From the NCBI GenBank assembly GCA_051362555.1, contig CM120646.1, forward strand, positions 7,316,001 to 7,380,000: a DNA stretch of 64,000 nt, in the 5' to 3' direction. Below are positions 1,070 to 62,403 of the stretch, one piece after another. Numbering within the stretch: the stretch's first letter is position 1; every line of letters begins with the position of its first letter. This stretch comes from Lingula anatina (lineage: Eukaryota; Animalia; Brachiopoda). The notes beneath the pieces were generated by a model. The model did no database searches. It was not told where the DNA came from and worked only from the letters and a program-made list of their open reading frames with translations. A program made the translations under genes and the position numbers.

Positions 1070-1265
1070 TGTATGTCATCGCAATTTTTCGATTAGATAG
1101 GCGTAAAACTTTTGATAGTATTTATTTCTGCATAACAATATCGCTTTTTTAGCATGTCACATATGTACAGTTCAGTGTTCATTAAGACAGCAAGAGTACT
1201 GTTTTTCGGTGAAATATATGTTCGCAGTTCAGAGTGTATATTCGGTCTGCAGTGACAATCTTTCC

Positions 1266-2364
1266 TTACATGAGACATGCATTCTGACAGTCTTCCAAAG
1301 TTTTAAACCTATTGGCATTCCCTCCACATCCCCCGTAGATAAACGTCTCACACTGGCCGGTCTTGCTGTTGAAGAAGTAACTTGGCATATAGGCTTTGCA
1401 CAGCCCGGGGACTGCTGGAAGCTCGCAGATTGCTAAAAATTTTAAAAGGGTATTCTTTAGTTGATACAAAATGCTTGGCTGTAGTCTAACTTGTCAGTCA
1501 CACATTTCTTTAATTACGAAAACTGATGTCTGGAATGATATCTATACTGGGGCTTCGCAAATTGATTCCCGTAAGGCAGAGTATCTCTTATACTTGTTCC
1601 ACCTGATTTGGCTAATCTCTGGCATATTTGCACATAAAAAACTCTACCTAATGAGACAATGGCGTTCTGTAATATGCTTTTCTACATTATATATTTGTTA
1701 AGGAATATATCACCATAATACCACGCACTAAGAACTTTAATTGGGCTGGTGATAAAGTCTACGTGTACAATGAAAATAAAAGCAGTATAACCAGTACTTC
1801 TGTAAAATAACTAAACTGTGTCGCCCCATGAAGCAGGAACAATTTTCCAATTGTCTGATAGCTTTTTCGAATTTAATATAAAGAAATGTCGGAATTGGTG
1901 CTTTATTGAGAAAACGGATAGAAAGTACTTACGAACACAGCGGGGTTCGGGCTGTGGACATGGCGCCTTTATACACATGACTTTGTCCTGAACGCACGTT
2001 TCTCCTGTAGGGCAGTCCATCGTCTAAGAGTAAAATTATTGAACGCCATTGAGGTTTTCATAAACAGAAACGAACATTTAGCAAATATTTTGACCATCAG
2101 TTTATTTCGTATAAGTAACGTCACCTACCGAACAGTCAAGCTTCTCAACTGCAACGCAGTGTGCACCACGGAATGTCTCTACGCATTTATTACCCGAAGA
2201 GCACTTAACAACCTGCAGATTGAAATAATTTCTACATCATTTACACAATACACATTTTATACAAATGGACAAAGCATCTGACCTGATAATTGAAGAATGA
2301 TTATTTGAAAAGAAGAATGTTTTAAAAAGTATATATTCTGGCTTTTTTATTTATTTATTTATTT

Positions 2365-2408
<44 letters not shown>

Positions 2409-5400
2409 TATATTTTTTGTCTCTAAACTAAAGATATGCATTTATAATTAAGGAAAACGCAAATTAATCTTCTCACCTGACAAGTTGTAACACATTTTGG
2501 AGAAGGAAAGGTGACACATTTCTGGCCAGCAAAGCAGGTTACAGCAGCCTGGGTACGGAAATACAGCTTATGACTACTAATGTAAGCATAATCAATATAA
2601 GTTGTTTTTTTTATTTCATTTATTTAATTTCCTATAATCGTAACACGTTTCCCATTACGTGTGCAGGTGACAATCGTCACATATATAGCCCTAATACTAC
2701 GACTACATGTAACCCTAAACTGTACAAATCATATGGGACCCCAGACTTTCATTCCTAGAACAAACTTTCTTGTCACACCGGTCTCCGCGACAATTTGTTT
2801 TTTCAATCTGGGTTTGACGTCAATGGCGTAGTCTCAAGAATAGTTTGGTACACTACCACAATGGAAGGTTATCAGATTTGTCCTAGTTTATGCCAGAGGA
2901 AAAATTAATGAAGTCTCATAAACGATACCATCAATATATAAGGTCATTATTCCAACACTGACGAAAAATGCCAACATTTAGACAGTCTTCAGGTATAGCC
3001 GACTTTTTTGGACAACAGTGTGCGAACAAACAAAAGCGACCAAGATGTCGACAGCTACTGCACTGAGAGATAATGCTGCCACTAGATCACATAAATCACT
3101 GAACCTTTCACAATTCATTTTCGATGTCAAGTTGACTCACAAATCAAACCAACCATATCCAACAAAGGCCACGTGTACCATAATTAGGCCTACTGCACAG
3201 CCAAGCGATACGAATAGCTCATGGACGCAAAAAAATCACACAAACAAAAAAACGTTCGAAACAAGCACTTGTTAATACTTACACAACCAGCAGGCAGTAC
3301 CTGTAAAGAGAAACAAGAACAACATAAGTGTGTGCTATAACGATAATAATTGGCAATAGGAGCGCATTCATCGATAAAATCAGTAGACGTGTTTCGAGCT
3401 CGATGTTTTTATCGACGTTCGGTTTTAAGGACATAATGTGTGTTAGAAATTTATGTAGCACACAATTAATTTTCCTAGAAAATACTTGTTATGGTATACT
3501 GATAAGATTCATTTACTTGTGGATGGCTGGTTGTTTTTTATCGATCTTCAATTTTGGCTTTGATTGCTTCGTATAATATTCTTGGAGATTTCAACACTTC
3601 TCCCTTGATCATCAAGCTATTTATGTTTACTTCAATTTGTGTTTATATATGTCACTCCAGTAATAATGGATATAGAGACTGGTGAATTCCACTTGTGACG
3701 ATAAAAATCAGAAACTCGGAAACTGGTTTATGGCTTGAAATTTCCTTACCGGTTTTATTTTGGATAGCATATACTTCTGTGATATTGAGGAGCATTTGCT
3801 GTAATTTACAGATTATTTTTCACTCTGTTTTATGACCAGCAAGTTTGTTGCTAGTTAACCAATTTACTTTTTTGTTTCTTGCATACTCATTTTTTCATCA
3901 CCCTCTCAACCCGCCAAACCAGATCACAGTCATCACAGTCACAATTTTAAAACAAAAAAAGGAATGGCAATATTGGCAGATGTGTCATTTATAATACCAC
4001 CTTTATAATCAACTAGGCCACATTAAAAATAATCATATTATGTTTAGAAGGATCAGTTGCACGTTGTGTCTATTTACAATCAGAGTTGACAAACTGGCAA
4101 GTTTAAGCATTGAAATAAAGGATGGTTGTTTATATAACTGTCACGCTGCGGTCGCGGTCAGCTTTTTCTGAGCTTCTGTCACTGCACACTAGCTTTGTAT
4201 TTTTTCTCTGCGACAAATGACCCATCGTACAGTCATAGTTAAAGAAAAAAAGTAAATATACCACCTTTGAAATTTGGTTTTAAAAAGAATCATAGTATGT
4301 ATAAAAAAAGTCTGTTGCGCATCGTGTGTCTATATTTAAACTATTTGACAACATGACAAGTCTAGGCATTGAAATTTAGAATGGATTATAGTGGTTGTTA
4401 ATATAGCTGTCACGCTTTGGGACATACTAGTTTTTTTCCGAGTTTCTATCACAGCACACTGGCTTAGCATTTTTAAATTTTTTAGCTTTGGGACATACGA
4501 CCCCGCGTGCAGTCACAGTTAAAAAATGCAGTTAAGATACCATCTTTAAAATCCAGCTTCAAAGAGAATCATATTATGTATAAAAGGTCTGTCGCGCATC
4601 GTGTGTCTATTTATAATCATAGTTGACAAACTGGCAAGTCTAAGCATTAAAATAAAGGATGGATTATGGTGGTTGTCTATATTATTGTAACTTCAAAAAG
4701 AATCATATTATGTATAAAAAGCTCTGTTGTGCATCGTGTGCCTATTTATAATCAAGGTTGCCAAGATGACAAGTCTAGGCATTGAAATATAGGATGGATA
4801 AGAGTGGTTGTTAATGTTACTGTTGCGCTGCAAGACATGCCAGTAGAGCGTTTTGTATGTTTCTATCGCTGCACAAGAATCGTTGAAAATGGCGCACGTG
4901 AAATGATGACCGTGTGCACGTGTCAACGGAACGGAATGTGTAGCAGATGTTTCTCAAATAATATCACTGTATAGTCTGTCATTGGCACATACGCGTATAA
5001 TTTGTTATGGCCGAATTTTCTGCCCTCAATATATATTAATATGTATATATTCAATATATATTAATATATACCAGCTATTTATATAGAAGTGGAGCATGAG
5101 GAATTACTTAAACGTTATTTGTTGCATCTTAAATTCATGGGCCTACCTGTATTACCGATCCTGTGCTAAAGTGATTAATTGTCATCATAAGATATTATTA
5201 AAACTAAGAAGTATAAATCATATTTAATAATAGTATTTTTATAGAATAAGCATTAAAATATATCATTTTTTTTCTTTTTGGCCGGCCTTAACACGACGTA
5301 ACCTGAGACAGTCACCTTACATCTGATGGTGTTATTACTTTTCGTTTAAGAAGGACATAAATGCATTGTGCTACTGCAACCTCCCATGAGATTATATAAA

Positions 5401-5648
5401 CCGCCTATTTTCTTGTTTTATTAAAATATTTTATTTTATTATTTATTTTTTCTTTTGTCTATGACATGAACTGAAAACAAAGTAAAGGCCTTTTTATTTG
5501 CCCAATTGCTCCTTTATGCGATAATTTCATCAAAATCGTGACACATATCTCAACACTAAATATAAGCGCGCGCGAGAGAGAGACTTACCTTTCCCTGCGC
5601 CGAGCAAATAATCAGCAAAACTAAACCAAGAGTTACAGTTGCTGTCAT
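1266..5648 (-). CDS. Secreted Cys-rich (3 FOLN-like modules) + Kunitz/BPTI protease inhibitor-like protein, copy A (~163 aa)
   Basis: Six GT-AG exons in continuous frame: 5589-5648 ([20 protein letters not shown], signal peptide), 3283-3300 (VLPAGC), 2477-2548 ([24 protein letters not shown]), 2129-2212 ([28 protein letters not shown]), 1933-2023 ([30 protein letters not shown]), 1266-1432 ([55 protein letters not shown]). The last exon has six Kunitz Cys and the [13 protein letters not shown] signature. Confidence 0.9.
3985..4870. repeat. Degenerate tandem repeat (core ~125 bp, spacing ~130-280 bp) in intron 1 of Kunitz gene A
   Basis: AAGAATCATATTATGTATAAAA...GCGCATCGTGTGTCTATTTATAATCA..GTTGACAA recurs near 4025, 4285, 4562 and 4695. 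Two copies also occur in the homologous intron of copy C (~22487, ~22768). Confidence 0.75.
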
Positions 5649-5736
5649 CTTGAGTTTCCCTCTATATCCGTACGTAGACAACGTTATTCTGCTTTTTGTG
5701 CTGATGACGTGTATAAAGCCTTGTCTCTCTTCGTTC

Positions 5737-5808
5737 TATTTATATATAGCGCCCCGTGGCTTATTTGCATGGCAGGCTAAGATCCGGGTCGGCTGCATCG
5801 TCACGTGA
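5737..5808 (-). promoter_or_regulatory. Proximal promoter of Kunitz gene A (TATA box, octamer-like ATTTGCAT, E-box TCACGTGA)
   Basis: TATATATAAATAG on the minus strand ~90 bp upstream of the ATG; ATTTGCAT at 5763-5770; TCACGTGA at 5801-5808. TATA and E-box are conserved in copy C (23651-23662, 23716-23723). Confidence 0.55.
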
Positions 5809-7369
5809 TCTTCTTTATTTCCCTGTTACAGAGTTAGGAGTGGTAAAGGTAGCGATATTTGAATTGTGATGACAATAACAGATAAAACCCGCTTCCGAGA
5901 AAAGTAGTGCATAAACACGCTTAAATTGAGGAAACATAAGATAGTCAGAAACGGAACCAGGAAGGACAGGTGTCTTGGTCTTTCACTAAGCTTCCGAGGT
6001 ACCCTTTTTTACCCCCACCCTCCTTAAAAACAGGGCAAAAATCAAAATAAAACAAAACCAAGCTACCACTTTGTTCTGCACGTTATGGTAAAATATCATT
6101 CGTTCATGCTTTTATATTAAACCTCATGAAATTGCATATCCCTACCTTCCTTGAGCCAAGTCCTGGAACTGCCAGCTTTATGCTGTGCCGTTTTATCCTC
6201 TTGCTGAATAATTAAGGCAAAGGCGAGTCTACTTGGATAGCAGCACTTCTGTACGTCAGCTTTTTATTTATATATATATTTAGTTAGTTAGTTAGTTAGT
6301 TAGCTAGCTAGCTAGCTAGTTATTGTTATCTGTAAACATTGTGAAAAGGAGATGTTTTCTAATATCTAGAAGTTTTCTATCAGGACACCGAGATCGAATC
6401 GAATCGAATCTTTTTTTTTTTTTTTTTTGCTCGATTGATATCTACCCGGTAAAGTTATAATTAACTCATATTACCTTTAAAGGTTAATATGGCCTTTTAC
6501 TGGTGCGAGCAATCCACCGGTTTTTATGGCTTTTTAGAAAGGCACCCTAATAACCAACTGTCAATTTGTGCTATAACTCATTCCATTTCTTTTAAACCAC
6601 ACACCAAAGCACACTCCTAGCACGAGATCTATTTCTGAATTTCGTTGGTTCGTGATATACAGCTCCAGAAAATCGATTTTTTCCTTGCTTCTAAATAAAA
6701 CGTCGTGACTGGTGACTGGGCGGTGTTACATGTACACTTAGGTTTGAATCCGCATTCTTTGTAACCGCTTGAGTGATAGAACGTCTGAGGTACATGTAGA
6801 CGGTACGATTATACACGGGGAGATTATATTGTGACTACATGAAATAACGAATACAAGGTGTATCACTGCAACATTAAAAGACAATATATCAGTTTCTTGT
6901 ACCATAACACAAGTATCTGGGTTTTGTGCTCTTTCATGTAGCGGCCTTTTCAATGCCAACGTATTTACAGAAGAGAGATATCGAGATACTTTTTCTTACA
7001 TTTAAAACTATAATTAATCTAATATCCAACTCATATTTCCTCGTGGGGTGCAACTCCTGAGATGCTTTGCTATCACAATAAAACATGTGGACGATTTATT
7101 TCGTCGCACCTTTAAACTTGTTTTGACTATAATATATACGTGACCACTAATACCACAAATTAAAAAAAAAAACGTGTTGGAGAGGCCATCAAGTGTTACT
7201 GTTAGCTAAATATTACGTGGCAGTGTGTATGACATAAACAAGTACAATGCAACAGTACACCACCAGAAAAGAAAATGCTACGCACTTGTATGCTATGTGT
7301 ATGCTACACACGAGCAAAATTAAATACACGTCGTTCCACTCACATAACCTTGTGCATAGCACATCTTAA

Positions 7370-7738
7370 AGGGATAATAACTCTTCGTATGAGATCTGTA
7401 TTTCGCGATAAAAACATTGTAAACAACTCATAGAAATAAAGTATATTCTGTTTTACCACGAAAACGGCAGTTATAGCTATTATTCTGATATCTGAGCTTG
7501 TCATCGGACCACCCGACCCCCACAGATGGCTATGCTCTGTTATAATCTCTTATGATTTGTGGTATAATCTCTTAAGAGATTATTACAAAAAAATCAATTT
7601 TTTTAGAAAAAAATCCCTAGGGACTAACTTTGAATGTAGAAATGGATTCATTAACCATTAGTAAGTACATGTATAAGAAAATTGTTGTTTACTCCAAAAT
7701 TTTTTTTTTTTTTGCCAAAACGAACAGTTATTATCCCT
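7370..7738. mobile_element. Non-autonomous TIR element with TTAA TSD (Kolobok-like AG..CT ends)
   Basis: TTAA|AGGGATAATAACT...AGTTATTATCCCT|TTAA. It is absent from the homologous site in unit C (~26775), and an inverted relative lies at ~15944-16316. Confidence 0.75.
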
Positions 7739-8318
7739 TTAATCAAATTGATATGTCACTTGATATATGTGTCACTCATTCAACATCATTTATTTATCTA
7801 TTTCAGAGTCATGTGAAAAAACCCCAGACACTTGACACCAGACAACCATACGACATTTAGAGAGTATACTACCTAGTACGTACTTCTTTTTGTCTGAAAT
7901 CAAAAATCTTAACTAAAAATTAGCAAACTGCCTCAATTTTTCCCATTTCATAATCCAAAGAAATTTCATATTTACTTCATTCACAAAATATACATTTTTC
8001 ACATGACACTGTGAGACATTGGAAAAGTGGAAAAGGTGTAAATACTATAGTAAATGCATGTAGGAGTTCTAAAGGCTGATAGTTTCTTACCTGTACATGA
8101 ACAATCAAGTTTTCTTTAATTTGCTTTAAAGCCATGCCTACACCATTAAATATTATCCTACAGAATTTATTTCCATCTGTAAAATGCGACATTTATGTTC
8201 TTGTATAAAACAAGCCATAGACCCCCTAGCTACTGATCTGAGCTGGGGCAGAAAAGTTCATTCTGAAATCCCAACTTCAGAATGAACTTCAGAAAAGTTC
8301 ATTCTGAAGTTGGGATTT

Positions 8319-8497
8319 CAGGCTCGTAGCTGGGGAGGGGGGGGGGGGTAGGATGGTTCGAAGGAACCCCCCCTTTTTGCCAGGAAAAGGTCCCCTCTGG
8401 TTAAAAAAATTCATCTAGAGACATGAAGGTTTCATGGTAAGAGGTCCACTCTTTCAGAAAAAGAACCACCCCTTTGAAATTGCTGGCTACAGGCCTG
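8319..8497. mobile_element. ~180-bp MITE with CAGGCCCGTAGCC-type TIRs and 5-bp TSD (GATTT)
   Basis: TIRs CAGGCTCGTAGC / GCTACAGGCCTG flanked by GATTT on both sides. Family members at 16909-17078, 25880-26058, 27281-28447 (split by a LINE), ~34011-34163, ~35635-35771 and ~54190-54268. Confidence 0.8.
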
Positions 8498-8823
8498 GAT
8501 TTGCTGTGCTTTTTGCATTCGATAACGATTACATGTGTTCAGGGGGTCCTAGGTAACATCTGAGACCAAATACTAAGGTATGCCTGAGAGCTCTTAGACC
8601 GCGACACCGCCATTGGTAAAAGAACAGACCGAGGTACAACCAAGAAACCCGAGTTTCTAGTATCAAAAAGTGGGGAAAGTCTTATATATATTGCAAATGG
8701 ACATTACATAGACTTCAAACAATTGCCAGGATATTGTAGCGAGCATATCAACAGTGGAGCCCTGTCTTCTGCCCTGTGAATACTGTGAGATTTTGTTTCA
8801 CTTAATGTGTCTCTTTATGCCGG

Positions 8824-9063
8824 TGTAACATGAAAATCTGACTCCCATGAAAATCTGACTCCCCCAGTCAAATAAAAATCAGACTCCCCTCTGACTCTCC
8901 ATTGTGCATACTACAAGATAAAAGTCATACACTCAAATAAAATAAGATTTATAAAGTTTTGTGGGGGGGGGGGGAGTAAAAATTTCGTGGGGGGAGTCAC
9001 ATTTTCATAATGAAAATCTGACTGGGGAGTCACATTTTGTCGGAATCAGATTTTCATGGTACA
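8824..9063. mobile_element. Non-autonomous Ginger1-like element (TGT..ACA TIRs, CCGG TSD)
   Basis: CCGG|TGTAACATGAAAATCTGA...TCAGATTTTCATGGTACA|CCGG. The empty site with a single CCGG is in unit C at 28821-28824. Confidence 0.75.
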
Positions 9064-9966
9064 CCGGAATTAAGTCTGGTTAAAAGCCTTATGTCATAAT
9101 GTGGTTAAAGAACAACTTGAGAACCTTATATGGTGAAGTATGGCTAAAATTTGCTTTTTGTTACTAAACAAAGAACAAAAGATATAACAAAACTCATTAG
9201 TATAAGTTCAAAAATCACATCAATCCACATGAGCTTTGTTAAAATTATACAAGTGGATGGTTAAAATGACATTAATTCACCTTTCAAAATTAATAAATGT
9301 GATAATTTTGGTAAGGTTGTTAGTTTAGTATGTTTCCTTGTATTCTTGTTAATCTATAAGTTAAATCAAAGGAATGGGTATTAAAAACACCACAATCTTG
9401 TAGTCACTTTGTTTTTATTGGCCATATAAGCTAGGGCATTCTACATATGAAATGAAATGAAAATTCGGAATGAGAGAGGAGAGTGCAAAGAATGACCGAT
9501 CAACCCGTTACTTTTGATATTCTGGAGACAAAATTACATAATTCACTATAAACTGTACAATGTCATACTGTGAATAACACGACGCCCATTGAATGTTATT
9601 ATATCTGTATTATTACTTATAAAAATTAAACATCTGCTGGTGCACAAACTACTGTTAAAGTCGGGGAACATCTCACATATTATTACGTTAATGTTCATAC
9701 ACGTAACTAAAAACAATGAATATACAAATAAATCCCAATACAGACTTCGAAATGTAGATATATCTGAAATATAAAGCTGAATAATCTTGAAACTACATCA
9801 TCGCAATTTTTTCTTTCAGATAGAAGTAAAACTTATTGAAAGTTTTTTTTTTTTTTTTTCTAAAGAACAATATCACTATTTTCAGGTCGGTCACACTTTT
9901 AGAACTCAATGTTCATTTAGACAGCATCAGTGAATCATAAGCTCGCAGTTCAGAGTGTATATGTCC

Positions 9967-12877
9967 TCACTGTTTGCATTCACGCCAACAGTCCTCCAAA
10001 GTTTTAAAGTTATTGACATTTCCTCCACATCCCGAGTAGATAAACGCATCACACTGCCTGGACTTGCTGTTGAAGTAGTACCGAACCGCATAATCTACAC
10101 ACCACCCTCGTTCTTTTGGATGCTCACAAAGTGCTAAAATTTTTAAATGGGTAACTAAAAGGGTGTTTAATAGCTATATAAAACAATGAAATAAAATCTG
10201 ACTTGGCAGTCGCATTTTTAATAAAAACCAATAATAATTTTGTCCGGAGTGCCATCTACTGGGGCTTCGCAAGTAAGCAGGGTATCTCTTATCCTTGTTC
10301 AATCTTTTTTGGCTATTTATCACATAAAAACTCTACCTAATTAGACTGTGACGTTCTGTTACATGCCGGAGCACATTATATGCAAGTACTAGTTAAAGAA
10401 TATATCACCATAATATCACGCACTGTGAACTTTAATTGTGATTGTGATAAAGTCTACATGTACAATGAATACAAAAGTAGTATGACCAGCACTTCTGACA
10501 CTCCCATAAAATAACTTTACTTTGTTGGCCCATGAAGCAGAAATAAGTTTTAAATTATGTCTGATAAGTTGTTCTGAATTTAAATAAATGACGGAAGATG
10601 TGCTTTCTCGAAAAAAAAGAAAGAATAACTTACGAATATGGCGTGGATGGCGCTGAGCACAATTGACTTTGCCCTGAACGCACGTTTCTCCTTTAGGACA
10701 CTTCATCGTCTAAAAGCAAATCATTAAACACCACTGAAAACCAGTTTTCTACCAAAGTATTCATAAACAGAAACGGAAATTAAGCAAACATTTTGACAAT
10801 TAGTTTATTCTGTACATTCGTATTTGTATGGATAGCGTCACCAACCGAACAGTCAAGCTGATTTAACTGATTTATAAACCAATATATTTATTTAAACAAT
10901 ACATATTTTAATATTATCAAAAATAAATTCATTTTGAGGAAAATATATAGATATTGAATCTTATAAAAATTTGCACAAGCAAACAAGCAGCTGATCTGAT
11001 AATTGAATGATTATTTGAAAAGAAGAATGCATAGGAGTTTATATTCTAGCATTTTTCATTGTCTCTAAACTAAAAATTACATATATTTCCTAAATGAGAA
11101 ATGTGCAGTTATAATTAAAGAAAACACAAATCTTTTCACCTGACATGTTGAAACACATCTTGGATAAGGAAAGGTGACACATTTCTGGCCAGCAAAGCAG
11201 GTTACAGCAGCCTGGGTATAGAAATACAGATGCTTATATGTTCGATGCACATTTTATAGCCAATACATACAAATGCCAGCATAATCAAGTTTTCTACTTA
11301 TTTCATGTATTTTATTTCGTATAAAAAACTCCAAGTCCGGTGTGACAGGAATGGTAGACGACTAAGAATCATAATTCGGTCTCCATTACTTTGTCCAGGT
11401 GACATTTATCTTATATGTAGCCCCAATACTACGGCTACATGTAACCATAATCATATGAGATCCTGGACTTCCATTCCTAGGACTACTACCATTCCTGTCA
11501 CCGATCTCTGCAACAATCTGGTTCTCATTTCGAAGACATTGGCGTGGTCTCAAGAATAGTGTGGTACACTTCCACAATAAAAAGAGTTGAGATTTGGCCT
11601 AGATTATACCAGATTATACCAGAGATAAAACTAATGATGTATTATAAACGATACCATCAACATTTAAGGTAATTATCCCAACAATGACTAAAAAAGCAAA
11701 TAATTCGGAAACTCATCAGGAACGTGTAACAGACTTTTTGGACAACAGCGTTTGTAGAAACAAAAAGCGACCAAGATATTGACAGCTGCTGCACTGAAAG
11801 ATAATGTGCACTAGACCATGTGGACAGACTGAACCGGTTCGCCTTTTGCCATAATTGCTCTATGTCAAGTTGACTTGGAAATCAAACCAACCACACCAAA
11901 TATTCATGTACCATACAGTATAAGGTCAAATGCTTCAGCTATGGTACTACACAGCCAAGCGTACGAATAGCTAATGGACACAAGAAGATTCACACAAACA
12001 AAAAAAAAAACCAAAACAAGCACTTGTTAATACTTACACAACCAGCAGGCAGTACCTGTAAAGAGAAACAAGAACAACATAACGATAACAATTGGCGATA
12101 AATTCAGCTGACGTGTTTCGAACTGTGTGTTGTAATCGACGTTCGGTTTTAAACCTTTTTTTACCCCACCGCCTTTTAGAACAATGCAAAAATCGAAATA
12201 TGAAAAACCCAAGCTACCTCTTTGCTCTGCATTTTATTGATTATTGATTGATTACTGATCCGGATCACCACCAAAAACTATTCATCTCTTCCTTGGCCCA
12301 CTTCTGACAGTTTCTGAAAACTTCATCAAAATCGGTTCACAACTTTATGAGTTATGTTGATGACAGACAGACAGAAAGACAAACAGAAACAAGGGTGAAA
12401 ACATAACCTCCTTGGCGGAGGTAAAAAAACTGCAGCAAATTCAGAATATTTCATCCCGTCTTTAATCCACACAGCCAGGGAGACTCATATCACACCCATT
12501 TTAAAGCAGTTGCATTGGATCCCTGTTAGAGCATGCATTTTATTAAATTCTTTTTAAACTTTTATGCATGCAATTTTCTACCAATACGCACACCCGTACC
12601 TACAAAAACTAGTTCATCATTATGCAACAAAATGTAGTTTAAGATTGCTTGACCAAATTGAGCTCATGCCATTTGATGCCAGAACTGGAAAACAATTAGA
12701 GACCTTTCATTTACCCAATCACTCTTTTAAGCAGCAATTACATCAAATCGTGAAGCTGCACAATATATCTCAACACTAAAATTAAAGTGTACAAGTGCAC
12801 GCGAGAGAGAGTCATACCTTTCCCTGCGTCGCGCAAATAATCAGCAAAACAAAACCAAGTGTTACGGTTGCTGTCAT
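9967..12877 (-). CDS. Secreted Cys-rich + Kunitz protein, copy B (~130 aa; exon 4 deleted)
   Basis: Exons 12818-12877 ([20 protein letters not shown]), 12038-12055 (VLPAGC), 11140-11211 ([24 protein letters not shown]), 10634-10709 (TMKCPKGETCVQGKVNCAQRHPRHI), 9967-10133 (PLCEHPKERGWCVDYAVRYYFNSKSRQCDAFIYSGCGGNVNNFKTLEDCWRECKQ*). The frame is intact. Candidate polyA signal AATAAA (minus) at 9414-9419. Confidence 0.8.
12232..12424 (-). mobile_element. Partial Helentron-associated (HINE/DINE-1-like) element
   Basis: Near-identical to 14335-14530, with the (GACA)n microsatellite and the ACCTCCTTGGCGGAGGT terminal palindrome. Confidence 0.7.
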
Positions 12878-13844
12878 CTTGAATTTCCCCTTTATAAGTG
12901 TACGCAGACAATATTCTTCTGCTTTATGTGCTGATAACACTTTTGGCTTTATTTATGTAAAACGCCCCATGGCTTATTCACATGACAGGCTAAGAACCGG
13001 ATCGGTTGCATCGTCAGGTGATCTTCTTTTTTTACTTGTTACAGAGCTAGAGTGCAATTCCTCTTTTGTTATCATAATAAAACGCGGGCGATTGATTTCG
13101 TCGCACCTTTAAACTTGTTTTGACTATTTACGTAATCAACTAATATCACAAAAAAACATGAAACGATATTTAAATTGTGCTGACAATGATAGATCAAACC
13201 TGTAAAACCTGTTCCCGAAAAAAGTATACTGCTTAAACAAGTTTGACTTGAGGAAGCATGCGACAAATACATAGTCAGAAGTAGAACCAGGGAGAGGCAG
13301 GTGTCTCGATTTTTCTCTAAGCCCCAAGATACCCTTTTATACCCCACTGCCTTTAAAAACAGTGCAAAAATCGAAATATGAAAAAACCAAGCTACCTCTT
13401 TGCTCTGCATTTTATAGTAAAATACCCTTCGTCCACTTTTTTTTATATTAAACAGTGTAAAATCGCATACCCCATTTTCCCTCAAGTCCTGAAGATTTCT
13501 AGGTATAAGGACACCGGGATCGAATCAAAACACCGGATAGATTTTCATTTTTATGGTCTTTCAATATTCATTTTTGCTCGATTGATATCTAAATTTATGA
13601 TAAACTTCTCTTTCCTTTAAAGGTCAATATGGTCTCTTACTGCTGCGAGCAATCCACCAATTTTATCGCGTTTTAGAAAGTCTCCATTATTGCTGAGTTT
13701 AAATTTCTCTTATAACCCGTTTTTTTTTAACCACACACCTAAACACACACCTATTACGAGATCTATTTTTGGATTTAGTTCGGTTCGTGTTATACAGCTT
13801 CGAAAACTCGATTAGTGTTTTTTCTTCTAAATGAAACGTCGCTA

Positions 13845-14770
13845 CTGGGCAGTGTCACATGTACACGAAGATTGATTTTGATCTTTCACTACTTGTTTTT
13901 GGGATGCCCCAAGGCAGTGTCCTTGGGCCATTTTTGTTTTGCATTTATACCCTGCCACTTGGTGCTGTCTTACGTCATCACAAACTTGGATACCCCATGT
14001 ACGCTGTTTATACTCGGATCTATAGGCCTACTTGCTGTGATATACAGTATCCTAAACCCTCTTTGGATAAATTAACCAACTGTGTGGCTGATGTTCGCGC
14101 CTGGCTCATCAACAACAAATTGAAACTAGAAAAGCATTCAGAAAGCGCAGACCTCCGCCAAGGTAGCAAAGTATCCATCCAATGCCGTTTCACCCCTATG
14201 ATTTTCGATATTTATGATTATTGATTATTGATTGATTATTGATCCAGATCACCACCAAAAACTAATCATCTGTTCCTTGGCCCACTTCGGACATTTCCTG
14301 AAAATTTCATCAAAATCAGTCCATAACTTTATTTTTTGATTATTGATTATTGATTGATTATTGATCCGGATCACGACCAAAAACTAATCATCTCTTCCTT
14401 GGCCCACTTCTGACAGTTTCTGAAAACTTCATCAAAATCGGTTCACAACTTTATGAGTTATGTTGATGACAGACAGACAGAAAGACAAACAGAAACAGGG
14501 GTGAAAACATAACCTCCTTGCCGGAGGTAACAATTAAACTGCAGCAAATTCAGAATATTTCATCCCGTCTTTAATCCGCACAGCCAGGGAGACTCATATC
14601 ACACCCATTTTAAAGCAGTTGCATTGGATCCCTGTTAGAGCATGCATTTTATTATTTTTTTAAAACTTTTATGCATGCAATGTTCTACCAATACGCACAC
14701 CCGTACCTACAAAAACTAGTTCATTATTATGCAACAAAATGTAGTTTAAGATCGCTTGACCAATTTGAGC
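13845..14770 (+). mobile_element. Decayed CR1/L2-like LINE reverse transcriptase fragment (duplicated with the Kunitz unit), interrupted by a HINE
   Basis: FGMPQGSVLGPFLFCIYTLPLG...MYA...WLINNKLKL, then HITPILKQLHW. Homologous to 24780-25630. Confidence 0.8.
14126..14530 (-). mobile_element. Non-autonomous Helentron/HINE-type rolling-circle element
   Basis: Sub-terminal inverted repeats ACCTCCGCCAAGG (14151-14163) and CCTTGCCGGAGGT (14516-14528), a short terminal hairpin with CTAG end, two ~122-bp internal core repeats (GATCCGGATCACCACCAAAA...) and a (GACA)n tract. Confidence 0.75.
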
Positions 14771-14873
14771 TCATGCCATTTGATGCCAGAACTGGAAAAC
14801 AATTAGAGACCTTTCATTTACCCAATCACTCTTTTAAGCAGCATTTATTTGTCGTATTGACATGGTGATATTA

Positions 14874-15136
14874 CAGTGGCTGATTTAGAGGGGGGTGGCA
14901 TGGGAGGGGTCCTGGCCCACATCCCTTCGATTTCTGGTCCCCTCTTGAAATTAGTATTTTGACTAGCTAAATCATAGTACTAAACCGTACCAAATGGCAC
15001 CGTTCGCCCTCTAAAGTGCTAAAAATTTTTTCGGGGTCCTTCAGCGGGCCCCGAACCCACGCCAAATGGGGAGGGGGGGGGGGGCTTTGCAACTGCAGAC
15101 CCCCCCCCCCTTCAAGTAGTCCGTGATCCGCCCCTA
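14874..15136. mobile_element. MITE with CAGTGGC(G)GAT/ATCCGCCCCT TIRs and 5-bp TSD (TATTA)
   Basis: TATTA flanks both ends (14869-14873 and 15137-15141). An inverted relative lies at ~55050-55269. Confidence 0.7.
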
Positions 15137-15189
15137 TATTATATGTGTCATTTCCAAACTAAACTGTTGACTCAAAGACTTTGTATTTT

Positions 15190-16628
15190 ATTTTCAGATC
15201 ATGCAGAAAAATATAAATAAATCTAAAAAAGGTAAAGTATAATGAAGAGTCAATAAAGCACGGCATACAACAATACAGATCCACCACTGATGGATATAGA
15301 AAAACTGCATGAAAATTTGACATTCCATGTTCAACATTACGAGATTATATTAAGAAAGTGCCTGAGTGGGAGTGCTTTTACTAAAGGAAATTATGAAAGT
15401 GAAGATGAATGTGTTTGCTTAGACCCCATTCCCAGAGATAAGATCGATCCAACTAGATCGACCTAACTCCCTGGGGGTTCACGCTAAATAGCTGTCAGCC
15501 GAGCGCGCACGGTAGTTAATTACCCCCTTACAGCTTTTAGTAGGCGGGACGGACATTTAAGCCGGATTATCTGACAGTAATCTAGTGAGACTCCCCACCG
15601 GGACAGATCGATCTAAAATCTATGGGAATGCGCCCTTAGTTTGCCTGGAGCCCTGGTCAAACAGTAAAACACATGAAAAGTGGATTGCATTTTGTGCATA
15701 TGATATGTGGGCCCACGAGGAGTGTACGGACTCTCTTGGCCAGCCTGACTTTACGTACGTTTGTCACAACAGTAACTCTGATTAATGTAGATGATTTGTT
15801 GTTGATAATTTAATAAACATTTTGATATTTTGGTTACAACTGCTGTGTTTTCATTGGTGCTGTCGTCTTTAACATAAGTTTTATTTTTGAAAAGTTACCC
15901 TAGGCAAACAATAGTTAGGAGTCGTTAAAGATTGACTGCTTAAAAGGATAACAACTGTTCATTTTGGTAAAAAAAAGGAATTTTCCTGGGGTAAACAGCA
16001 ATTTCCCATACTTACCGATGGTTAATGAATTCATTTCTACATTCAAAGTTAGTCCCTTTTTTATAATTTTTTTTTTTTTTTTGTAATAACATCTTAAGAC
16101 ATTACTATAGACTAAGATCTAATAAACAGTATATTAGATCTTAGCTATAGAGTATAGCCATCTATGGAGGTCACGTGGTTGAATGACAAGCACAGATTTC
16201 AGATTTACTGTCATAACTGTCATTTTTGTAGTGAAATAGATATATTATAGTTATTTGAGTTGTTTACAATGTATTAATTGTGAAATATAGATATCATACG
16301 AAGAGTTGTTTTCCTTTTTGCTGCTGTTACTCGGTCTTACTGATTAAAATGCACAAAATTGGACAAAAGCACATTTTTTTCTTGGATTCTAGTATGTGTG
16401 TGGACTTGCCCCTGGGTGGGGCAAGTTGGCACACTTGGACTAGACTTTTTTAAACTTAATTTACTCTCATATAATTTACAGTGGACGCCTGATACTTATC
16501 CAAAATAAAGGCATTTAAATAACCCTCCTGACAAATATCTAGGATCCTGACGATAATAGTATATATATATATATGTCTCTCATGCCAATTTTCATGAAAA
16601 TGGTGCTGACTAGCCCCACCCTCCCCTA
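15190..16628 (+). mobile_element. Internally deleted pogo/Tigger-like DNA transposon remnant (HTH-psq + C-terminal PHD finger)
   Basis: ...GYRKTA*KFDIPCSTLRDYIKK (psq-type HTH) is joined to C-x2-C...WI-x-C..WAHEEC...YVC (PHD). A TIR-like end GCCCCACCCTCCCCTA lies at ~16613-16628. Confidence 0.55.
15422..15635. mobile_element. PIF/Harbinger-like MITE (TTA TSD) inserted in the PHD-finger codons
   Basis: TTA|GACCCCATTCCCAGAGAT...ATCTATGGGAATGCGCCC|TTA. Removing it restores ECVCLVCLEPW. Confidence 0.7.
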
Positions 16629-17761
16629 TTATTATTTATTATGAGTGCTCCAGCACAACGTACAGTGGAAAAAGTGTAAATTTCAGTAAATGCATGTAGG
16701 AGTTCTCAATGCTGATAATTTCTCACATGTACTAGTAAGTTCTCTTCAATTTGCTTTAAACCTATACCTTAACCGTTAAATACTATCCTGCAGAGTTTAT
16801 TTTTCATCTGTAACATGCTACCTACATGTTCTCGTATAAAACATAAGCCATGGACCCCCAGTACTGATCTGAGCTAGGGCAGGAAAGTTCATTCTGATGT
16901 TTAGATTTCAGGCCCGTATCCGGGGGGGGGGGAGGGGGGGGGGGAAAGGAAAAGGTCCGAAAGACGGAAAAGGTCCCCTCTGGTTAAAATTTCATCTAGA
17001 GACATGAAAGTTTCATGGTAAGAGGTCCACTTTTTCAGAAAAAGTACCACCCTTTTGAAATTGCTGGCTACAGGCCTGGATTTGCTATGCTTTTTGCAGT
17101 CGATAACGATTAAAAGTGTTCAGGGGGTCCTATGTAGATAACATCTAAGACCAAATATTAAGTTATGCCTGAGAGCTCTGAGGCTGCGACACCGCCAGAG
17201 GTAAAAGAACTGACGGAGGTACTACCAAGAAAACCCATGTTAGAAAAAGATGGCCGATGAGCTGGAGACAGGGGTGTGCTAGCTCGCAAAAGTTACCGCC
17301 AGTCAAGGGATGTATGGGGTGACAGAACGATCGGGGTGAGTTACGATGACATGAATAGACCGTGCACCGATATGCGTGCCTGATTTTGAAAACTGTGTAA
17401 CAAAGGTGCTTTTTTTACGTCTTTCGTATATATAACATTCCAAGTACAGATTGAACTAAGCATGAGTAACTGTATTGTTCATGAACAAAGGTAAATGGAA
17501 GTGAAATATTGCGTAACACTATAAGTGCCCTGATCAGTGAACACCAGTGAATTTCTGCCTCATTATCCATCCTACCTGCACTATTAATGTGTACAGTGTA
17601 TGGTTCATCGCCCCATGATGAATGGAACTAAAGAAACAAATGAGCGTAATGACTCGAAAACATCTCAGTCAACGAAAACACTTCACTCGGAACTCTCAAA
17701 CTCCAGTGACGATGAATCTCAATTCATTATGCAAGATGTAGTGCCAGGGGCAGGTAGAACC

Positions 17762-17835
17762 GGCCGGGTAGCTCAGTAGGTAAGAGCACTCGCCCTGTAA
17801 GCGAGGGGTCCCGGGTTCGATTCCTGGCCTGTTCG
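17762..17835 (+). ncRNA. tRNA-like sequence (anticodon TGT, Thr-like) within the 5' LTR
   Basis: Cloverleaf with D-arm GCTC/GAGC, anticodon arm CTCGC-CCTGTAA-GCGAG and T-arm CCGGG-TTCGATT-CCTGG. A box TAGCTCAGTAGG, B box GGTTCGATTCC, and a T5 run just downstream. The acceptor stem is imperfect. Confidence 0.75.
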
Positions 17836-17952
17836 GTGATTTTTCTGCACTCACCCCAAATCGCTACAATGGTGGCAGCGGTGTTGCGAGATAGGGCTCG
17901 CGTCTTTCGGCATTTGGGGGGGAGGAGTGTAGTGCCAGGGGCAGGTAGAACC

Positions 17953-18026
17953 GGCCGGGTAGCTCAGTAGGTAAGAGCACTCGCCCTGTAAGCGAGGGGT
18001 CCCGGGTTCGATTCCTGGTCTGGCTG
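17953..18026 (+). ncRNA. tRNA-like sequence (anticodon TGT) within the 3' LTR
   Basis: Same cloverleaf as 17762-17835; the acceptor stem GGCCGGG/TCTGGCT pairs fully with G-U wobbles. Confidence 0.75.
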
Positions 18027-18910
18027 GTGATTTTTCTGCACTCACCCCAAATCGCTACAAAGAAATGCTAGAAATTAAAACTGAATTAAAACAAATAATA
18101 AAAGATGAGGTGGGCGAAATAAAAGCTATGGTAGACGTAATGGTTAAAGATTTGAAAGAAGCCATGGAAAAGCGGTTTTTAGAAATGGAAATGAAATTCG
18201 ACGTGAGATTCGGAAGACTGAAAGAGGGATATGATCACCTGTCAACTGAAAACAAATTATTGAAAGAGCAGATTATGGACAATAAAAGAGAAATTACAAG
18301 GTTAGCAAAAATAGCAGAGGAAGCTGGCAACATGTCCAGAGAAGCTCAAATCAATGCTAACTATAATGAGCAATACTCCCGGAAAAACAACATCAAGATC
18401 TACGAAGTGAAAGAGGAGAAAAATGAAGACATGGTCGGCATGGTGTCCAAACTGGTACAATAGGAAACTGGTGTACGGGTGACCAGTGAAGAGATCGTTG
18501 CCGTGCACAGGATACCTGGAAAGCGAGGACAGGAAAGACCAATATTACTGAAAGTTAAGAACACTGATGTGAAAGCACGGATTATGAAAAAGCGTGCAGT
18601 ACTCAGGAAATAGGGAAAGAATATGAAACTTTCAGACGATGTAACCAAACGTAACATTGAGCTTTTACACAGACTAAATGAGAGTCAGCTAACATATAAT
18701 CTCGTTAATGCTCATACATGTAACGAAAAATAACAATTATACAAATAAATCCCAATACAGACTTCGAAATGCATAAAAGGGTAACATTTAGATATATCTG
18801 AAATAAAAAACTGAACAACCTTTAAACTACGTCATCGCATTTTTCTATCGGATAGACGTAAAACTATTTAAGTTCAGAGTGTATAGTCGGTCTGCAGTGT
18901 CAATTTGTCC

Positions 18911-21900
18911 TTACACGAGGCATTTAGCTTCACAGTCTTCCAAAGTTCTAAAAAATGGAATATTTCCTTGACATCCCTTATAGATAAACAGCTCACACTG
19001 CCTTGTCGCGACGTGGAAGAAGTACATAAGGAGGTGTAATCCACAGTCCAGGGCTATAGGTTGAATCAGGCAGATTGCTAAAAAAAATTAAATGGGAAAT
19101 TGAAATGGTGATTTATAGCTATGCAAAACAATAGAAAAAAGTCTGAATTGCCAGTCGCATTTTTTATGAATACCGATAACAATTTTGTCCGGAGCGCCAA
19201 TTACCGAATACCGATAACAATTTTGTCCGGAGCGCCATCTACTTACATAATTCACTATAACCTATACAATGTCATTCGTGAATAATACAACGCCCTTGGA
19301 CGTTATTATAAGTTAATATATCAAAACTTCAAAGAATTAAGCATCTGCTGGTGCACGAACTACTGTTAAGGTCGGGGAACACCCGACATTACGCAATTAC
19401 GTTAATGTTCATACACGTAACTAAAAACAATAATTACACAAATGCATTACAGGGTAACAATCAGATATATCTGAAATATAAAGCTGAACAATCTTAAAAC
19501 TATGTCATCGTAAATCGTAATAAACTGTTGTTTCCGCAATTATTTTGATATGGCATACCCATGTAATGAAGGGATGATTGTTAACTTTTTTCTTGTTATT
19601 ATTATTATTATCATTATTATTAATTGTGGTACACAAATGTCTAAAACGTCTTTATTTAAATGTACTTAGGATGGACGAGAACCGAGTACCAAAGGTAGAT
19701 TTGAGATGGACACCACCTGGAAAAAAGAAAGAGAGGAAGGCCCAAGACCACCTGGCGCCGAACAGTGATGGCAGAGCTGAGGGAGGGGGACCTTATATGG
19801 GGACAGGCCCAGCACGTATCCAGAGACAGGGCCAAAGTATTGGGGCTTCGCAAGCAGATTGTCTCTCATCCTTGTTCGACCTAGTTTGGCAATTTGGACA
19901 TGAAAACTTAACCTAATGAGACTGTGCCGTTCTGTTATATACAGAAACACATTATATGCACGTACTTGTTAAAGAATATACCACCATAATATCACGCACT
20001 ATGAAATTTAATTGTGATTGTGATAAAGTCTGCATGTACAATGAAACAAAAGCAGTATGACCAGCACTTCTGTTACTCCCATAAAATAACTGTCGCCCCA
20101 TGAAGCAGAAACAATTTTCAAATTGTCTGATTTTTTTTTTCGAATTTAATATAATGAAGTGATGGAAGATGTGGTGTATTAAGAAAATGGAGACAATTAC
20201 TTACGATCAATGCGTTGATCGGGCTGTGGACATGGCTCCTTTTCACAAATGACTTTGTCCTGAACGTACGTTTCTCCTTTAGGACAGTCCATCGTCTAAA
20301 AGTAAAAAATGAAACACCACTGAAAACCAGTTTTCTTCCAAGGTTTTCATAAACAGAAACGAAAATTTAGCAAACATTTTGACGATCAGTTTATTCCGTA
20401 CATTCGTATAAGTAACGCCACCTACCGAACAGTCGGCCTTCTCAACTGCAACGCAGCGTGCACCGAGGGCTGTCTCAACGCATTTAGAGCCGACAGGACA
20501 TGTTACAACCTGCAGTCAGTTTAAAGATTGAACTGATTTATAAACCAATATATTTATTTAAACAGTTCATATTTTAATATTATAAAAATTAATTAATTTT
20601 GAGGAAAACAGATAGATATTGAATCTTACGAAACATTTCAGAAGTAAACAAGCAGCTGTTCTGATAATTTAATGTTTATTTGAAAAGAAGAATGCATAAG
20701 AGTTTATATTCTAGCATTTTTCGTTGTCTCTAAAGTAAAAGTCCATATATTTCCTAAATGAGAAATTTGTAGTTATTATTAAAGAAAACGCAAATCTTTT
20801 CACCTGACATGTTAAAACACATCTTGGAAATGGATAGGGGACGCATCTCTGGCCAGGAGGGCAGGGTACACCAAACTGGGTATAGGAATACAGATGCTTA
20901 TTATATGTTCGGTGCACATTTTGTAGCCAATGAATACAAATGCCAGCATAATTAATTAAGTTTTCTACTTGTTTTATGTATCTTTATTTCGTATAACAAA
21001 ATCCCAGACCGGTGTGACAGGAATGGTAGTCGGCTAGGAACCATAATTAGGTCCCCGTCACTTTGTGCAGGTGACATTCGTCTTATATATATATATATAG
21101 CCCCAATACTAGGACCAAATGTAACCATAAACTGGGCTAATCATATGAGATCCTGGACTTCCATTCCTAGGACTACTACCATTCCTGTCACCGGTTTAAG
21201 CAAGAATCTGGTTCTCGTTTCGATGACATTGGCGTGGTCTCAAGAATAGTGTGGTACACTTCCACAATAAAAAGAGTTCAGATTTGGCCTAGATTATACC
21301 AGAGGTAAAACTAAGGAATAATTATAAAAGATACCATCAACATTTAAGGTAATTATCCCAACAATGACGAAAAAAGCAAATAATTCGGAAACTCATCAAG
21401 AAGTGTAACAGACTTTTTGGACAAGAGTGTTTGTAGAAACAAAAAGCGACCAAGATATTGACAGCTACTGCACTGAGATAAAATGTGCCACTAGACCAAA
21501 TAAATACACTGAAACGGATGGCATTTTAACATTCTTGCTCTATGTCAAGTTGACTTGGAAATCAAACCAACCACACCAAATATACATGTAGTCTACCATT
21601 TACGGTCAAATGCTTCAGCTAAGGCACTACACAGCCAAGCGTACGAATAGCTCATGGACACAAAAATTCACACAAACAAAAAATATCGAACAAGCACTTG
21701 TTTATACTTACACAACTACGAGGCAGTACCTGTATAGAAAAAACAAGAACAACGTAAGTGTGTGTTATAACGATAACAATTGACAATAGGAGCTCACTCG
21801 ATAAATTCAGCTGACGTGTTTCGATCTTGATGTTGTTATCGACATTCGGTGTTTAAGACACAAAATTAATTTTCCTGGAAAATACATATTATGGTATACT

Positions 21901-29052: not shown

Positions 29053-29168
29053 AACAAAGGCTGGCAAATGGCTGCCATTGAAGGAGTAAAATCAATGCGA
29101 TCGGGATTATAACTTAATTTTATAAGTATTTGCCTCCTAGTTATATATATATATATAAAGAAGAAAAC

Positions 29169-39175
<10,007 letters not shown>

Positions 39176-43985: not shown

Positions 43986-44077
<92 letters not shown>

Positions 44078-59497: not shown

Positions 59498-59544
<47 letters not shown>

Positions 59545-62346: not shown

Positions 62347-62403
<57 letters not shown>

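What the first reader, a model, noticed from the sequence alone, without database searches (positions are those of the whole stretch)
1266..19077. Hypervariable Kunitz reactive loop despite readily alignable introns (P1 = Lys / Val / Gly)
[51 protein letters not shown]. Between A and C all 14 non-Cys residues from Cys1 to the YFF motif differ. The six Cys, FIY.GC.GN and TLEDC are kept, the exon stays 167 nt with no stops, and the flanking introns align easily. By BPTI numbering the residue after Cys2 is P1 (established): Lys predicts trypsin-like targets, Val elastase-like targets, and Gly a weak or non-inhibitory variant. Exons evolving faster than introns is the signature of toxin and immune arms-race genes (inference).
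Basis: partly seen in the sequence, partly recalled or inferred. Interest (0 to 1): 0.75.

Follow-up and report, generated by a model that had tools for sequence, protein, structure and literature searches.

The report
Diverging brachiopod Kunitz inhibitor gene trio
Three neighbouring copies of a protease-inhibitor-type gene in the lamp shell Lingula differ sharply in their predicted enzyme-binding loop: one copy keeps the likely ancestral, predicted trypsin-blocking form, two have likely been reshaped by selection, and one loop was possibly rewritten by frame-restoring insertions and deletions, which is a known kind of gene-family evolution rather than a sign of a toxin.

Summary
Three tandem six-exon genes (A, B, C; minus strand) encode a signal peptide, 2-3 Cys-rich repeats and one Kunitz domain; P1 is Lys/Val/Gly. 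A is identical to Lingula anatina XP_013385338, is spliced in RNA reads, and has one peptide in a published shell proteome.

The arms-race reading is only partly supported.
- Positive selection in exon 6 is likely: M2a vs M1a p=0.001, 0.007 with suspect codons of C masked, 0.057 with the C-terminus also dropped.
- It is asymmetric. A is conserved (omega about 0.1) and closest to an outgroup paralog; B and C are accelerated (omega about 2-4).
- It is not confined to the loop.
- The intron next to exon 6 is about twice as diverged as distal introns, so the exon-intron contrast is inflated.
- C's '14 of 14' difference may come partly from compensated frameshifts (+2/-4/+2 and +2/-2; p 0.01-0.08, post hoc). 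They coincide with loss of Gly12 and Asn43, kept in 149 and 152 of 152 other Kunitz domains.

Nothing points to a toxin. Expression of B and C was not tested. Verdict: a new member of a well-known kind, with one unusual possible twist.

The parts
5589..5648 (-). Gene A exon 1 coding part (20 codons, signal-peptide-like)
   Evidence: ATG to GT donor; matches the start of XP_013385338; its last 6 nt appear joined to exon 2 in read ends (table 7)
3283..3300 (-). Gene A exon 2 (18 nt microexon; 24 nt in the reads of runs X7/X9)
2477..2548 (-). Gene A exon 3, Cys-rich repeat 1
   Evidence: joint 2212/2477 in 360 (X7), 368 (X9) and 3 (X4) reads
2129..2212 (-). Gene A exon 4, Cys-rich repeat 2 (absent from RefSeq isoform X2)
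   Evidence: joint 2023/2129 in 736, 765 and 7 reads
1933..2023 (-). Gene A exon 5, Cys-rich repeat 3 with inner Cys pair; holds the peptide reported from the shell proteome
1266..1432 (-). Gene A exon 6, Kunitz domain, P1 Lys, P1' Ala, canonical residues kept
   Evidence: joint 1432/1933 in 829, 691 and 2 reads
12818..12877 (-). Gene B exon 1 coding part
   Evidence: differs at 2 and 4 residues from the two RefSeq B models
12038..12055 (-). Gene B exon 2, identical to A's with its flanks (60 of 60 columns)
11140..11211 (-). Gene B exon 3
10845..10860 (-). Remnant of exon 4 in gene B: an 86-nt deletion removed the acceptor and most of the exon; skipping it keeps the frame
   Evidence: alignment; the RefSeq B models lack the exon
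10634..10709 (-). Gene B exon 5 (76 nt, 15 nt shorter, two Cys fewer)
9967..10133 (-). Gene B exon 6, Kunitz domain, P1 Val, P1' Asp; Gly12 and Asn43 kept
23521..23580 (-). Gene C exon 1 coding part
21712..21729 (-). Gene C exon 2
20804..20875 (-). Gene C exon 3 (11 of 24 residues differ from A)
20426..20509 (-). Gene C exon 4
20205..20295 (-). Gene C exon 5 (two Cys lost)
19243..19838 (.). Insertion in intron 5 of C: a copy of the gene's 3' flank (80% like 9534-9806) plus a LINE-like fragment (label by eye, recalled)
18911..19077 (-). Gene C exon 6, Kunitz domain, P1 Gly; Gly12, Gly36 and Asn43 lost; two candidate compensated-frameshift clusters (BPTI about 10-20 and 42-44)

Best explanation
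This is a tandem trio of Lingula genes for likely secreted Cys-repeat + Kunitz proteins, in which copy A keeps the likely ancestral, predicted trypsin-inhibiting loop, while copies B and C likely diverged after duplication under a mix of positive selection and relaxed constraint. Shown: the gene structures, open frames, the splicing of A, and the asymmetry of amino-acid change. Inferred mechanism: A would bind trypsin-like serine proteases by the standard mechanism (Lys15 into the S1 pocket, loop held by Cys14-Cys38) and so protect the organic shell matrix or mantle secretions from proteolysis. B keeps the scaffold but carries Val/Asp at P1/P1', so it would be aimed at a different, possibly elastase-like, protease. 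C's loop was probably (about 0.6) rewritten in part by short frame-restoring indels, so it is unlikely to be a canonical inhibitor and is either retargeted or drifting. Gene conversion likely homogenised distal introns but not the exon-6 neighbourhood.
For: Gene models with canonical splice sites and open frames, and even Cys counts after an assumed cleavage at residue 19 (20/14/18). A = XP_013385338 letter for letter; three junctions in hundreds of reads in 2 of 4 runs and 2-7 reads in a third; one A-specific peptide in the shell proteome (PMC13425148 supplement). M2a vs M1a p=0.0011, 0 of 85 bootstrap replicates; 0.0017 with double-nucleotide changes; 0.0069 with C's suspect codons masked. 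Branch omega 0.12 (A), 2.05 (B), 2.06 (C) from exon data alone. Calibrated on the adjacent intron: 0.04-0.07, 3.6-3.7 and 2.5-4.3, all p<=0.002. The outgroup paralog XP_013401614 has Pro11-Gly12, Lys15-Ala16 and Asn43 and matches A at 14, B at 10 and C at 6 of 34 variable sites. Two scans place the same shifted segments in C.
Against: Only three sequences, and a home-made codon model with fixed kappa. With exon data alone, omega(B,C)=1 is not rejected (p=0.065). M2a falls to p=0.057 once C's suspect codons and residues 52-57 are both removed. The A-B pair alone gives loop omega 2.7, p=0.072. No reads were laid on B or C. No annotated protein for C was found (a weak search). The shell record is a single peptide from a single spectrum. 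The frameshift p-values (0.013-0.084) are post hoc, and control A reaches 0.08. No inhibition assay exists.
Confidence: 0.6

Rival explanations
1. B and especially C are redundant copies under relaxed selection, C on its way to a pseudogene. The apparent omega>1 comes from frameshifted codons, multi-hit codons and conversion-shortened intron trees.
For: C has lost Gly12 (kept in 149 of 152 other domains), Asn43 (152 of 152) and Gly36, and two Cys in exon 5. Whole-exon dN/dS is near 1. Two-ratio test p=0.065. No C protein on record. Compensated frameshift pairs are rare and most likely pass through an uncompensated state (PMC8935012, section 13). B has lost exon 4 and part of exon 5.
Against: C keeps an open 163-codon frame, all six exons with splice sites and all six Kunitz Cys, although only 16 of 67 intron gap runs are multiples of three. 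20 of 54 Kunitz codons are invariant. B, with no shift signal, still has omega* 3.1-5.9. M2a stays significant with C masked (p=0.0069).
Confidence: 0.22
2. The exon-intron contrast is mainly a conversion artefact: exon 6 of the three copies is simply older than the introns, which were homogenised later.
For: The adjacent intron-5 tree (0.34/0.11/0.14) is about twice the distal tree (0.18/0.07/0.06). A and B agree at 60 of 60 columns around exon 2 and at 12 consecutive variable sites in exon 3 (0 of 5000 permutations), although introns group B with C. Exon-6 dS on B+C is 0.41-0.46 in free-ratio fits against 0.13 in introns.
Against: The synonymous rate in the 20 invariant codons is 1.8x the intron tree (95% CI 0.69-3.96). 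The site-model test uses no intron data. Omega on B and C stays 2.5-4.3 under local calibration. A local divergence peak amid conversion is itself a described signature of selection keeping paralogs different (PMC3924837, passages).
Confidence: 0.1
3. The genes encode defensive toxins (for example Kunitz-type K+ channel blockers) in an arms race with predators or parasites.
For: Kunitz genes of snake venom show the same conserved-intron, fast-exon pattern, with selected sites in both loop and scaffold (PMC5107962, passages). A is very abundant in 2 of 4 runs (about 540-570 reads per kb per million) and scarce or absent in the others, which suggests a specialised tissue.
Against: The Kunitz domains carry a net charge of 0, +1 and -1, unlike the basic channel blockers (recalled). 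The domain sits behind 2-3 Cys-rich repeats, not at a free N-terminus. The only protein record is from shell matrix. No venom system is known to me in brachiopods (own knowledge). Relatives pair the same repeats with TIL or Kazal inhibitor domains.
Confidence: 0.05

Closest known systems
BPTI/Kunitz family (Pfam PF00014): BPTI, boophilin, SmCI, TFPI domains
   Same: Six-Cys spacing, Pfam pass for all three copies, equal-length match of A to BPTI 4-55 with Lys at P1; the model of C has Kunitz topology (TM 0.67-0.72).
   Different: A single domain behind 2-3 Cys-rich repeats; B has Val/Asp at P1/P1' (each about 1% of 152 domains); C lacks Gly12, Gly36 and Asn43.
Lingula XP_013401614 (RefSeq 'keratin-associated protein 10-7', 578 aa)
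   Same: Same repeat type, same last repeat with an inner Cys pair directly before one Kunitz domain; 46% identity over 150 aa; P1 Lys.
   Different: About nine repeats before the Kunitz domain and a TIL domain after it; on another scaffold; not in the shell-proteome supplement.
Snake venom Kunitz/BPTI multigene families (PMC5107962)
   Same: Tandem duplicates, conserved introns, selected sites in both the canonical loop and the scaffold (passages).
   Different: Venom context and many sequences there. Here there are three paralogs, one conserved, no venom evidence, and possible frameshift-driven change ('insertion' occurs 0 times in that paper's main text).
Shell-matrix Kunitz proteins (Haliotis asinina two-Kunitz protein, PMC2989941)
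   Same: Secreted Kunitz protein detected in a shell matrix; protection of the matrix from proteolysis is the authors' postulate (passages).
   Different: Phosphate-shelled brachiopod, different domain architecture; rapid paralog divergence was not described in the passages read.
[quoted passage not shown]
   Same: Close indels that restore the frame and rewrite a short protein segment (abstract and section 13).
   Different: Described between species in vertebrates and insects. Here the case lies between tandem paralogs, possibly three indels plus a second pair in one exon, spanning a predicted reactive site and its disulfide Cys.

Membership tests
Kunitz/BPTI domain (PF00014) | Profile score above the curated cut-off and six Cys in canonical spacing | tested here: met
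   81.1, 68.0 and 49.5 bits against 21; spacing
Kunitz/BPTI domain (PF00014) | Kunitz fold (two-stranded sheet, C-terminal helix) | tested here: inconclusive
   Model of C: pLDDT 79, TM 0.67-0.72 but rmsd about 4 A to solved Kunitz domains; no comparable model of A or B (the single-sequence model of A failed, pLDDT 42)
Canonical (standard-mechanism) Kunitz serine-protease inhibitor | Gly12, Tyr35, Gly37, Asn43, Phe45 kept (list from PMC6270371) and a small P1' residue (recalled): copy A | tested here: met
Canonical (standard-mechanism) Kunitz serine-protease inhibitor | Same residues: copy B | tested here: inconclusive
   Scaffold residues kept, but P1' is Asp (1.3% of 152 domains; Ala or Gly 83%) and P3 Trp occurs in 0 of 152
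Canonical (standard-mechanism) Kunitz serine-protease inhibitor | Same residues: copy C | tested here: not met
   Leu12 and Pro43 each occur in 0 of 152 domains, Lys36 in 1 of 152, P1' is Leu
Canonical (standard-mechanism) Kunitz serine-protease inhibitor | Measured tight-binding inhibition of a serine protease | not testable with these tools
   needs an assay
FOLN (follistatin/osteonectin-like EGF, PF09289) repeats | Pfam match of the N-terminal repeats | tested here: not met
   No FOLN hit for A, B or P0044 at E<=10. Leads only: Atlas hit at 0.81 to a cluster that is 61% FOLN, and 1 of 52 relatives passes FOLN. 'FOLN-like' is a resemblance.
Shell matrix protein | Peptides recovered from shell extract | tested here: inconclusive
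   One unique peptide, one spectrum, for A in PMC13425148 Data S19/S20 and Tables S5/S6; 0 occurrences for the B models and P0044
Kunitz-type channel toxin | Venom-gland expression and channel block | not testable with these tools
   Run tissues are coded; charge and architecture do not suggest it
Positively selected gene | A site class with omega>1 improves the fit | tested here: met
   M2a vs M1a p=0.0011 and 0.0069; borderline 0.057 in the strictest masking
Compensatory frameshift (pCFM) | Shifted homology better than substitution alone, confirmed in further lineages | tested here: inconclusive
   p 0.013-0.084 against a substitution-only null; no ortholog of C available

The most novel reading that the evidence does not exclude
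Copy C is a working gene whose reactive loop was rewritten in one leap by three frame-restoring indels (+2, -4, +2). They rebuilt the Cys14 codon from shifted bases at the same protein position and created a new P1 (Gly), while a second +2/-2 pair removed Asn43. This would be frameshift-driven retargeting of a protease-inhibitor loop, kept by selection against gene conversion.
Probability: 0.22. Interest if true: 0.7.

Novelty: new member of a known kind. Interest (0 to 1): 0.4.

Why it matters
Fast change at inhibitor reactive sites after duplication is long established, so the core finding adds a brachiopod example, tied by one peptide to the shell matrix. It hints that the organic matrix of a phosphate shell faces varied proteolytic attack. 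The point of wider interest is copy C. If its loop came from compensated frameshifts and the protein works, it is a compact, testable case of frameshifts creating a new binding surface. It also warns that codon-wise dN/dS scans of toxin-like and inhibitor families can mistake shifted codons for positive selection.

Tried and rejected
- No whole genome is held, so the copy number beyond the window is unknown. P0044 (B-like, keeps exon 4) and P0058 lie on other RefSeq scaffolds.
- No RNA holder was listed by the index; the runs came by species label.
- Reads were laid only on 1001-4400, so B and C were not tested. Eleven reads of run X1 in exon 5 share 2 of their 3 listed differences with B and C; this is too little to call expression. 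That table showed 40 differences and hid 395, so the P1 codon in the diverged runs X7/X9 could not be read; the two exon-6 rows shown are replacements at BPTI 10 and 32. The exon-4-skipping joint of RefSeq isoform X2 was not among the listed joints.
- The omega values are invalid (a rounding step froze the optimiser) and were replaced; only its invariant-codon part is used.
- The loop omega of 5.5 (exon-only) and 22-27 (intron-calibrated) is rejected as a headline: the segment was chosen because it is variable, and it holds the suspect codons.
- The single-sequence fold of A failed (pLDDT 42).
- FOLN membership was not met.
- A search with C's domain among longer proteins found nothing (weak).
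- No main text holds the six accessions searched. The Lingula + Kunitz search (10 papers, 9 listed) and the brachiopod + selection search (14 papers, 10 listed) showed no study of this cluster in their listings. The 2015 genome paper has 0 'Kunitz' hits in its text and supplement. Subscription papers, such as the 2018 Lingula immunity paper, were not searchable.
- No complex was predicted: only a stand-in protease was available, and a textbook pair would pass by likeness.
- No earlier findings of this scan exist here.
Full report
WHAT IS THERE. A six-frame scan finds exactly three Kunitz motifs in the window, all on the minus strand, inside three tandem copies of one gene unit. Each copy has a signal-peptide-like exon, an 18-nt microexon, two or three Cys-rich exons and a 167-nt Kunitz exon; the frames are open: A 163 aa, B 130 aa, C 163 aa. 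A is letter for letter Lingula anatina XP_013385338, and A without exon 4 is isoform XP_013385339. B matches XP_013385340/341 except for 4 and 2 residues of the signal peptide, so the window is probably another haplotype or assembly (inference). No protein for C was found (weak). B has lost exon 4 through an 86-nt deletion, which fixes the form that A makes as an isoform. A B-like RefSeq protein on another scaffold keeps exon 4 and differs from B at 3 of 53 Kunitz positions, two of them at BPTI 10-11.

THE OBSERVATION. It is correct: 14 of 14 non-Cys residues differ between A and C over BPTI 6-20, 14 of 14 between B and C, and 10 of 14 between A and B. P1 is Lys, Val and Gly by the equal-length match of A 110-161 to BPTI 4-55. 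Exon-6 identity (0.71/0.63/0.57) is below that of 1350 distal intron columns (0.79/0.80/0.89). But the 116 intron columns next to exon 6 are themselves more diverged (0.66/0.65/0.79), and against them only B-C stands out.

IS A EXPRESSED? Four runs were laid on 1001-4400 at 80% likeness. X7 and X9 show the exon 3-4, 4-5 and 5-6 joints in 360-829 reads each; X4 shows them in 2-7 reads; X1 has no depth on exon 6. Rough levels are 541, 571, 8 and 0 reads per kb per million records. Most X7/X9 reads are under 95% alike, so they come from a diverged population, whose exon 2 is 24 nt. A published L. anatina shell proteome lists XP_013385339/338 on one unique peptide from exon 5 (one spectrum) and classes it as immunomodulatory (PMC13425148: sections 8 and 9 read, supplement searched). 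The B models are absent from that supplement. B and C were not tested with reads.

IS IT POSITIVE SELECTION? Pairwise whole-exon dN/dS is 0.36/0.46, 0.54/0.53 and 0.68/0.54, near 1, but this averages over 20 invariant codons of 54. With my own codon model (three sequences, kappa 2.21, equal codon frequencies), M2a beats M1a: LRT 13.6, p=0.0011, about half the sites at omega 4.8. None of 85 parametric replicates reaches that LRT, and allowing double-nucleotide changes barely alters it. The change is asymmetric: omega is 0.12 on A and about 2 on B and C (against omega=1, p=0.065). Calibrated on the adjacent intron it is 0.04-0.07, 3.6-3.7 and 2.5-4.3 (p<=0.002). An outgroup confirms the direction. 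A search with the N-terminal 88 residues (53 hits) returned as best hit a longer Lingula paralog, XP_013401614, with the same repeats and a Kunitz domain reading Pro11-Gly12...Lys15-Ala16. It matches A at 14, B at 10 and C at 6 of 34 variable sites. So Lys is likely ancestral, and Val and Gly derived. The signal is not loop-specific: the a-priori contact set gives omega 1.9-2.1 against 1.0-1.2 elsewhere (p 0.08/0.04), fast sites include BPTI 32, 36, 44 and 52-57, and exons 2-5 also show it (p=0.005, mainly on C). Snake Kunitz genes likewise have more selected sites in the scaffold than in the loops (PMC5107962, passages).

GENE CONVERSION. Introns group B with C (branches 0.19, 0.07, 0.06), yet A and B are identical over 60 columns around exon 2 and agree at 12 consecutive variable sites in exon 3 (0 of 5000 permutations; acceleration in C could also give the latter). 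The local intron tree at exon 6 is twice as long as the distal one. Distal introns therefore underestimate the age of exon 6. This does not remove the signal: the synonymous rate in invariant codons is 1.8x the intron tree (CI 0.69-3.96), and the site test uses no introns. A local divergence peak under conversion is a described mark of selection keeping duplicates apart (PMC3924837, passages).

THE TWIST IN C. A gapped alignment of C to the A/B profile recovers +2, -4, +2 across the loop and +2, -2 at BPTI 42-44 (gap-open 4; with gap-open 5 only one +2/-2 pair remains). Read in the shifted frames, C encodes Pro-Gly-Leu as in A (both base differences synonymous) and then Asp-Tyr as in B (its one difference synonymous). 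On this reading, C's Cys14 codon and P1 Gly are made of shifted bases. Against substitution-only simulations that already allow omega 4.8, p is 149 of 4453 and 350 of 4453, and 0.084, 0.038 and 0.0125 for one, two and three segments (4000 runs). The same scan gives 0.08 for A and 0.58-0.75 for B. These tests were built after seeing the alignment and would not survive strict correction. Separate support: the two family-invariant residues that C has lost, Gly12 (149 of 152 non-Lingula domains from 52 fetched proteins) and Asn43 (152 of 152), lie exactly in the shifted segments and would otherwise need 2 and 3 base changes. Both are named as conserved in PMC6270371 (passage). I put the frameshift origin at about 0.6. 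With those codons masked, M2a remains significant (p=0.0069) and falls to 0.057 if residues 52-57 are also dropped. Such pairs are rare and most likely pass through an uncompensated state (PMC8935012, abstract and section 13), which points to a period of relaxed constraint in C. Against plain decay: C keeps an open frame, all splice sites, six Kunitz Cys and an even mature Cys count, though only 16 of 67 intron gap runs are multiples of three. Its model is Kunitz-like (pLDDT 79, TM about 0.7, rmsd about 4 A), without a control model.

HOW IT LIKELY WORKS. Established for the family: Lys or Arg at P1 favours trypsin (PMC6270371, passage; PMC3721222, passages). A has every canonical residue, so it is predicted to be a secreted trypsin-type inhibitor. 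Its presence in shell extract fits the postulate that shell Kunitz proteins guard the organic matrix against proteases (PMC2989941, passages). That Val favours elastase-like enzymes and that a large or acidic P1' weakens canonical binding is recalled, not tested; B's Asp16 makes its target uncertain. C fails the canonical test. The N-terminal repeats resemble FOLN modules but do not pass Pfam; a matrix-anchoring role is a guess. Nothing supports a toxin: neutral domains, an internal position, a shell record, and relatives that pair the repeats with TIL or Kazal domains.

VERDICT. Observation confirmed; interpretation partly supported. It is a new member of a known kind (duplicated inhibitors with fast-evolving reactive regions), undescribed for this cluster in the searches made. 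The possible frameshift-built loop in C is the one feature that would raise it.

Noticed in passing
window 10845-10860 and P0044 (XP_013404496): B lost exon 4 by deletion, mirroring A's exon-skipped isoform; a B-like protein on another RefSeq scaffold keeps the exon, so the loss may be allele- or paralog-specific.
   Followed up: partly
P0058 (XP_013401614): Long-form Lingula paralog: about nine Cys-rich repeats, one Kunitz domain and one TIL domain. Similar repeats occur in many unnamed and bacterial proteins.
   Followed up: partly
window 3283-3300: The 18-nt microexon is 24 nt in the reads of runs X7/X9 and there resembles C's version at its 3' end.
   Followed up: partly
window 2711-2790: Intron 2 of A holds a short transcribed repeat that draws up to thousands of reads from elsewhere in all four runs.
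   Followed up: no
window 17737-18060: Two tandem 133-nt copies, 97% identical, each with an ARAGORN tRNA-Thr(TGT) call; possibly tRNA-derived repeats.
   Followed up: partly
window 12234-12740 and 14340-14847: A 510-nt element duplicated at 96% identity; one copy replaces most of intron 1 of B.
   Followed up: no
window 1-900: Decayed Tc1/mariner-like transposase sequence (by eye, motif recalled).
   Followed up: no
window 29168-38500 (+): Multi-exon gene head-to-head with C that looks like CFAP91 (recalled); Pfam found nothing on three exons.
   Followed up: partly
window 42800-46400 (-): TALE homeobox gene of the Meis/PKNOX type (PF16493).
   Followed up: partly
window 58170-64000: Tandem duplication with a period of about 2.85 kb at 97.6% identity, with inner sub-repeats.
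   Followed up: no
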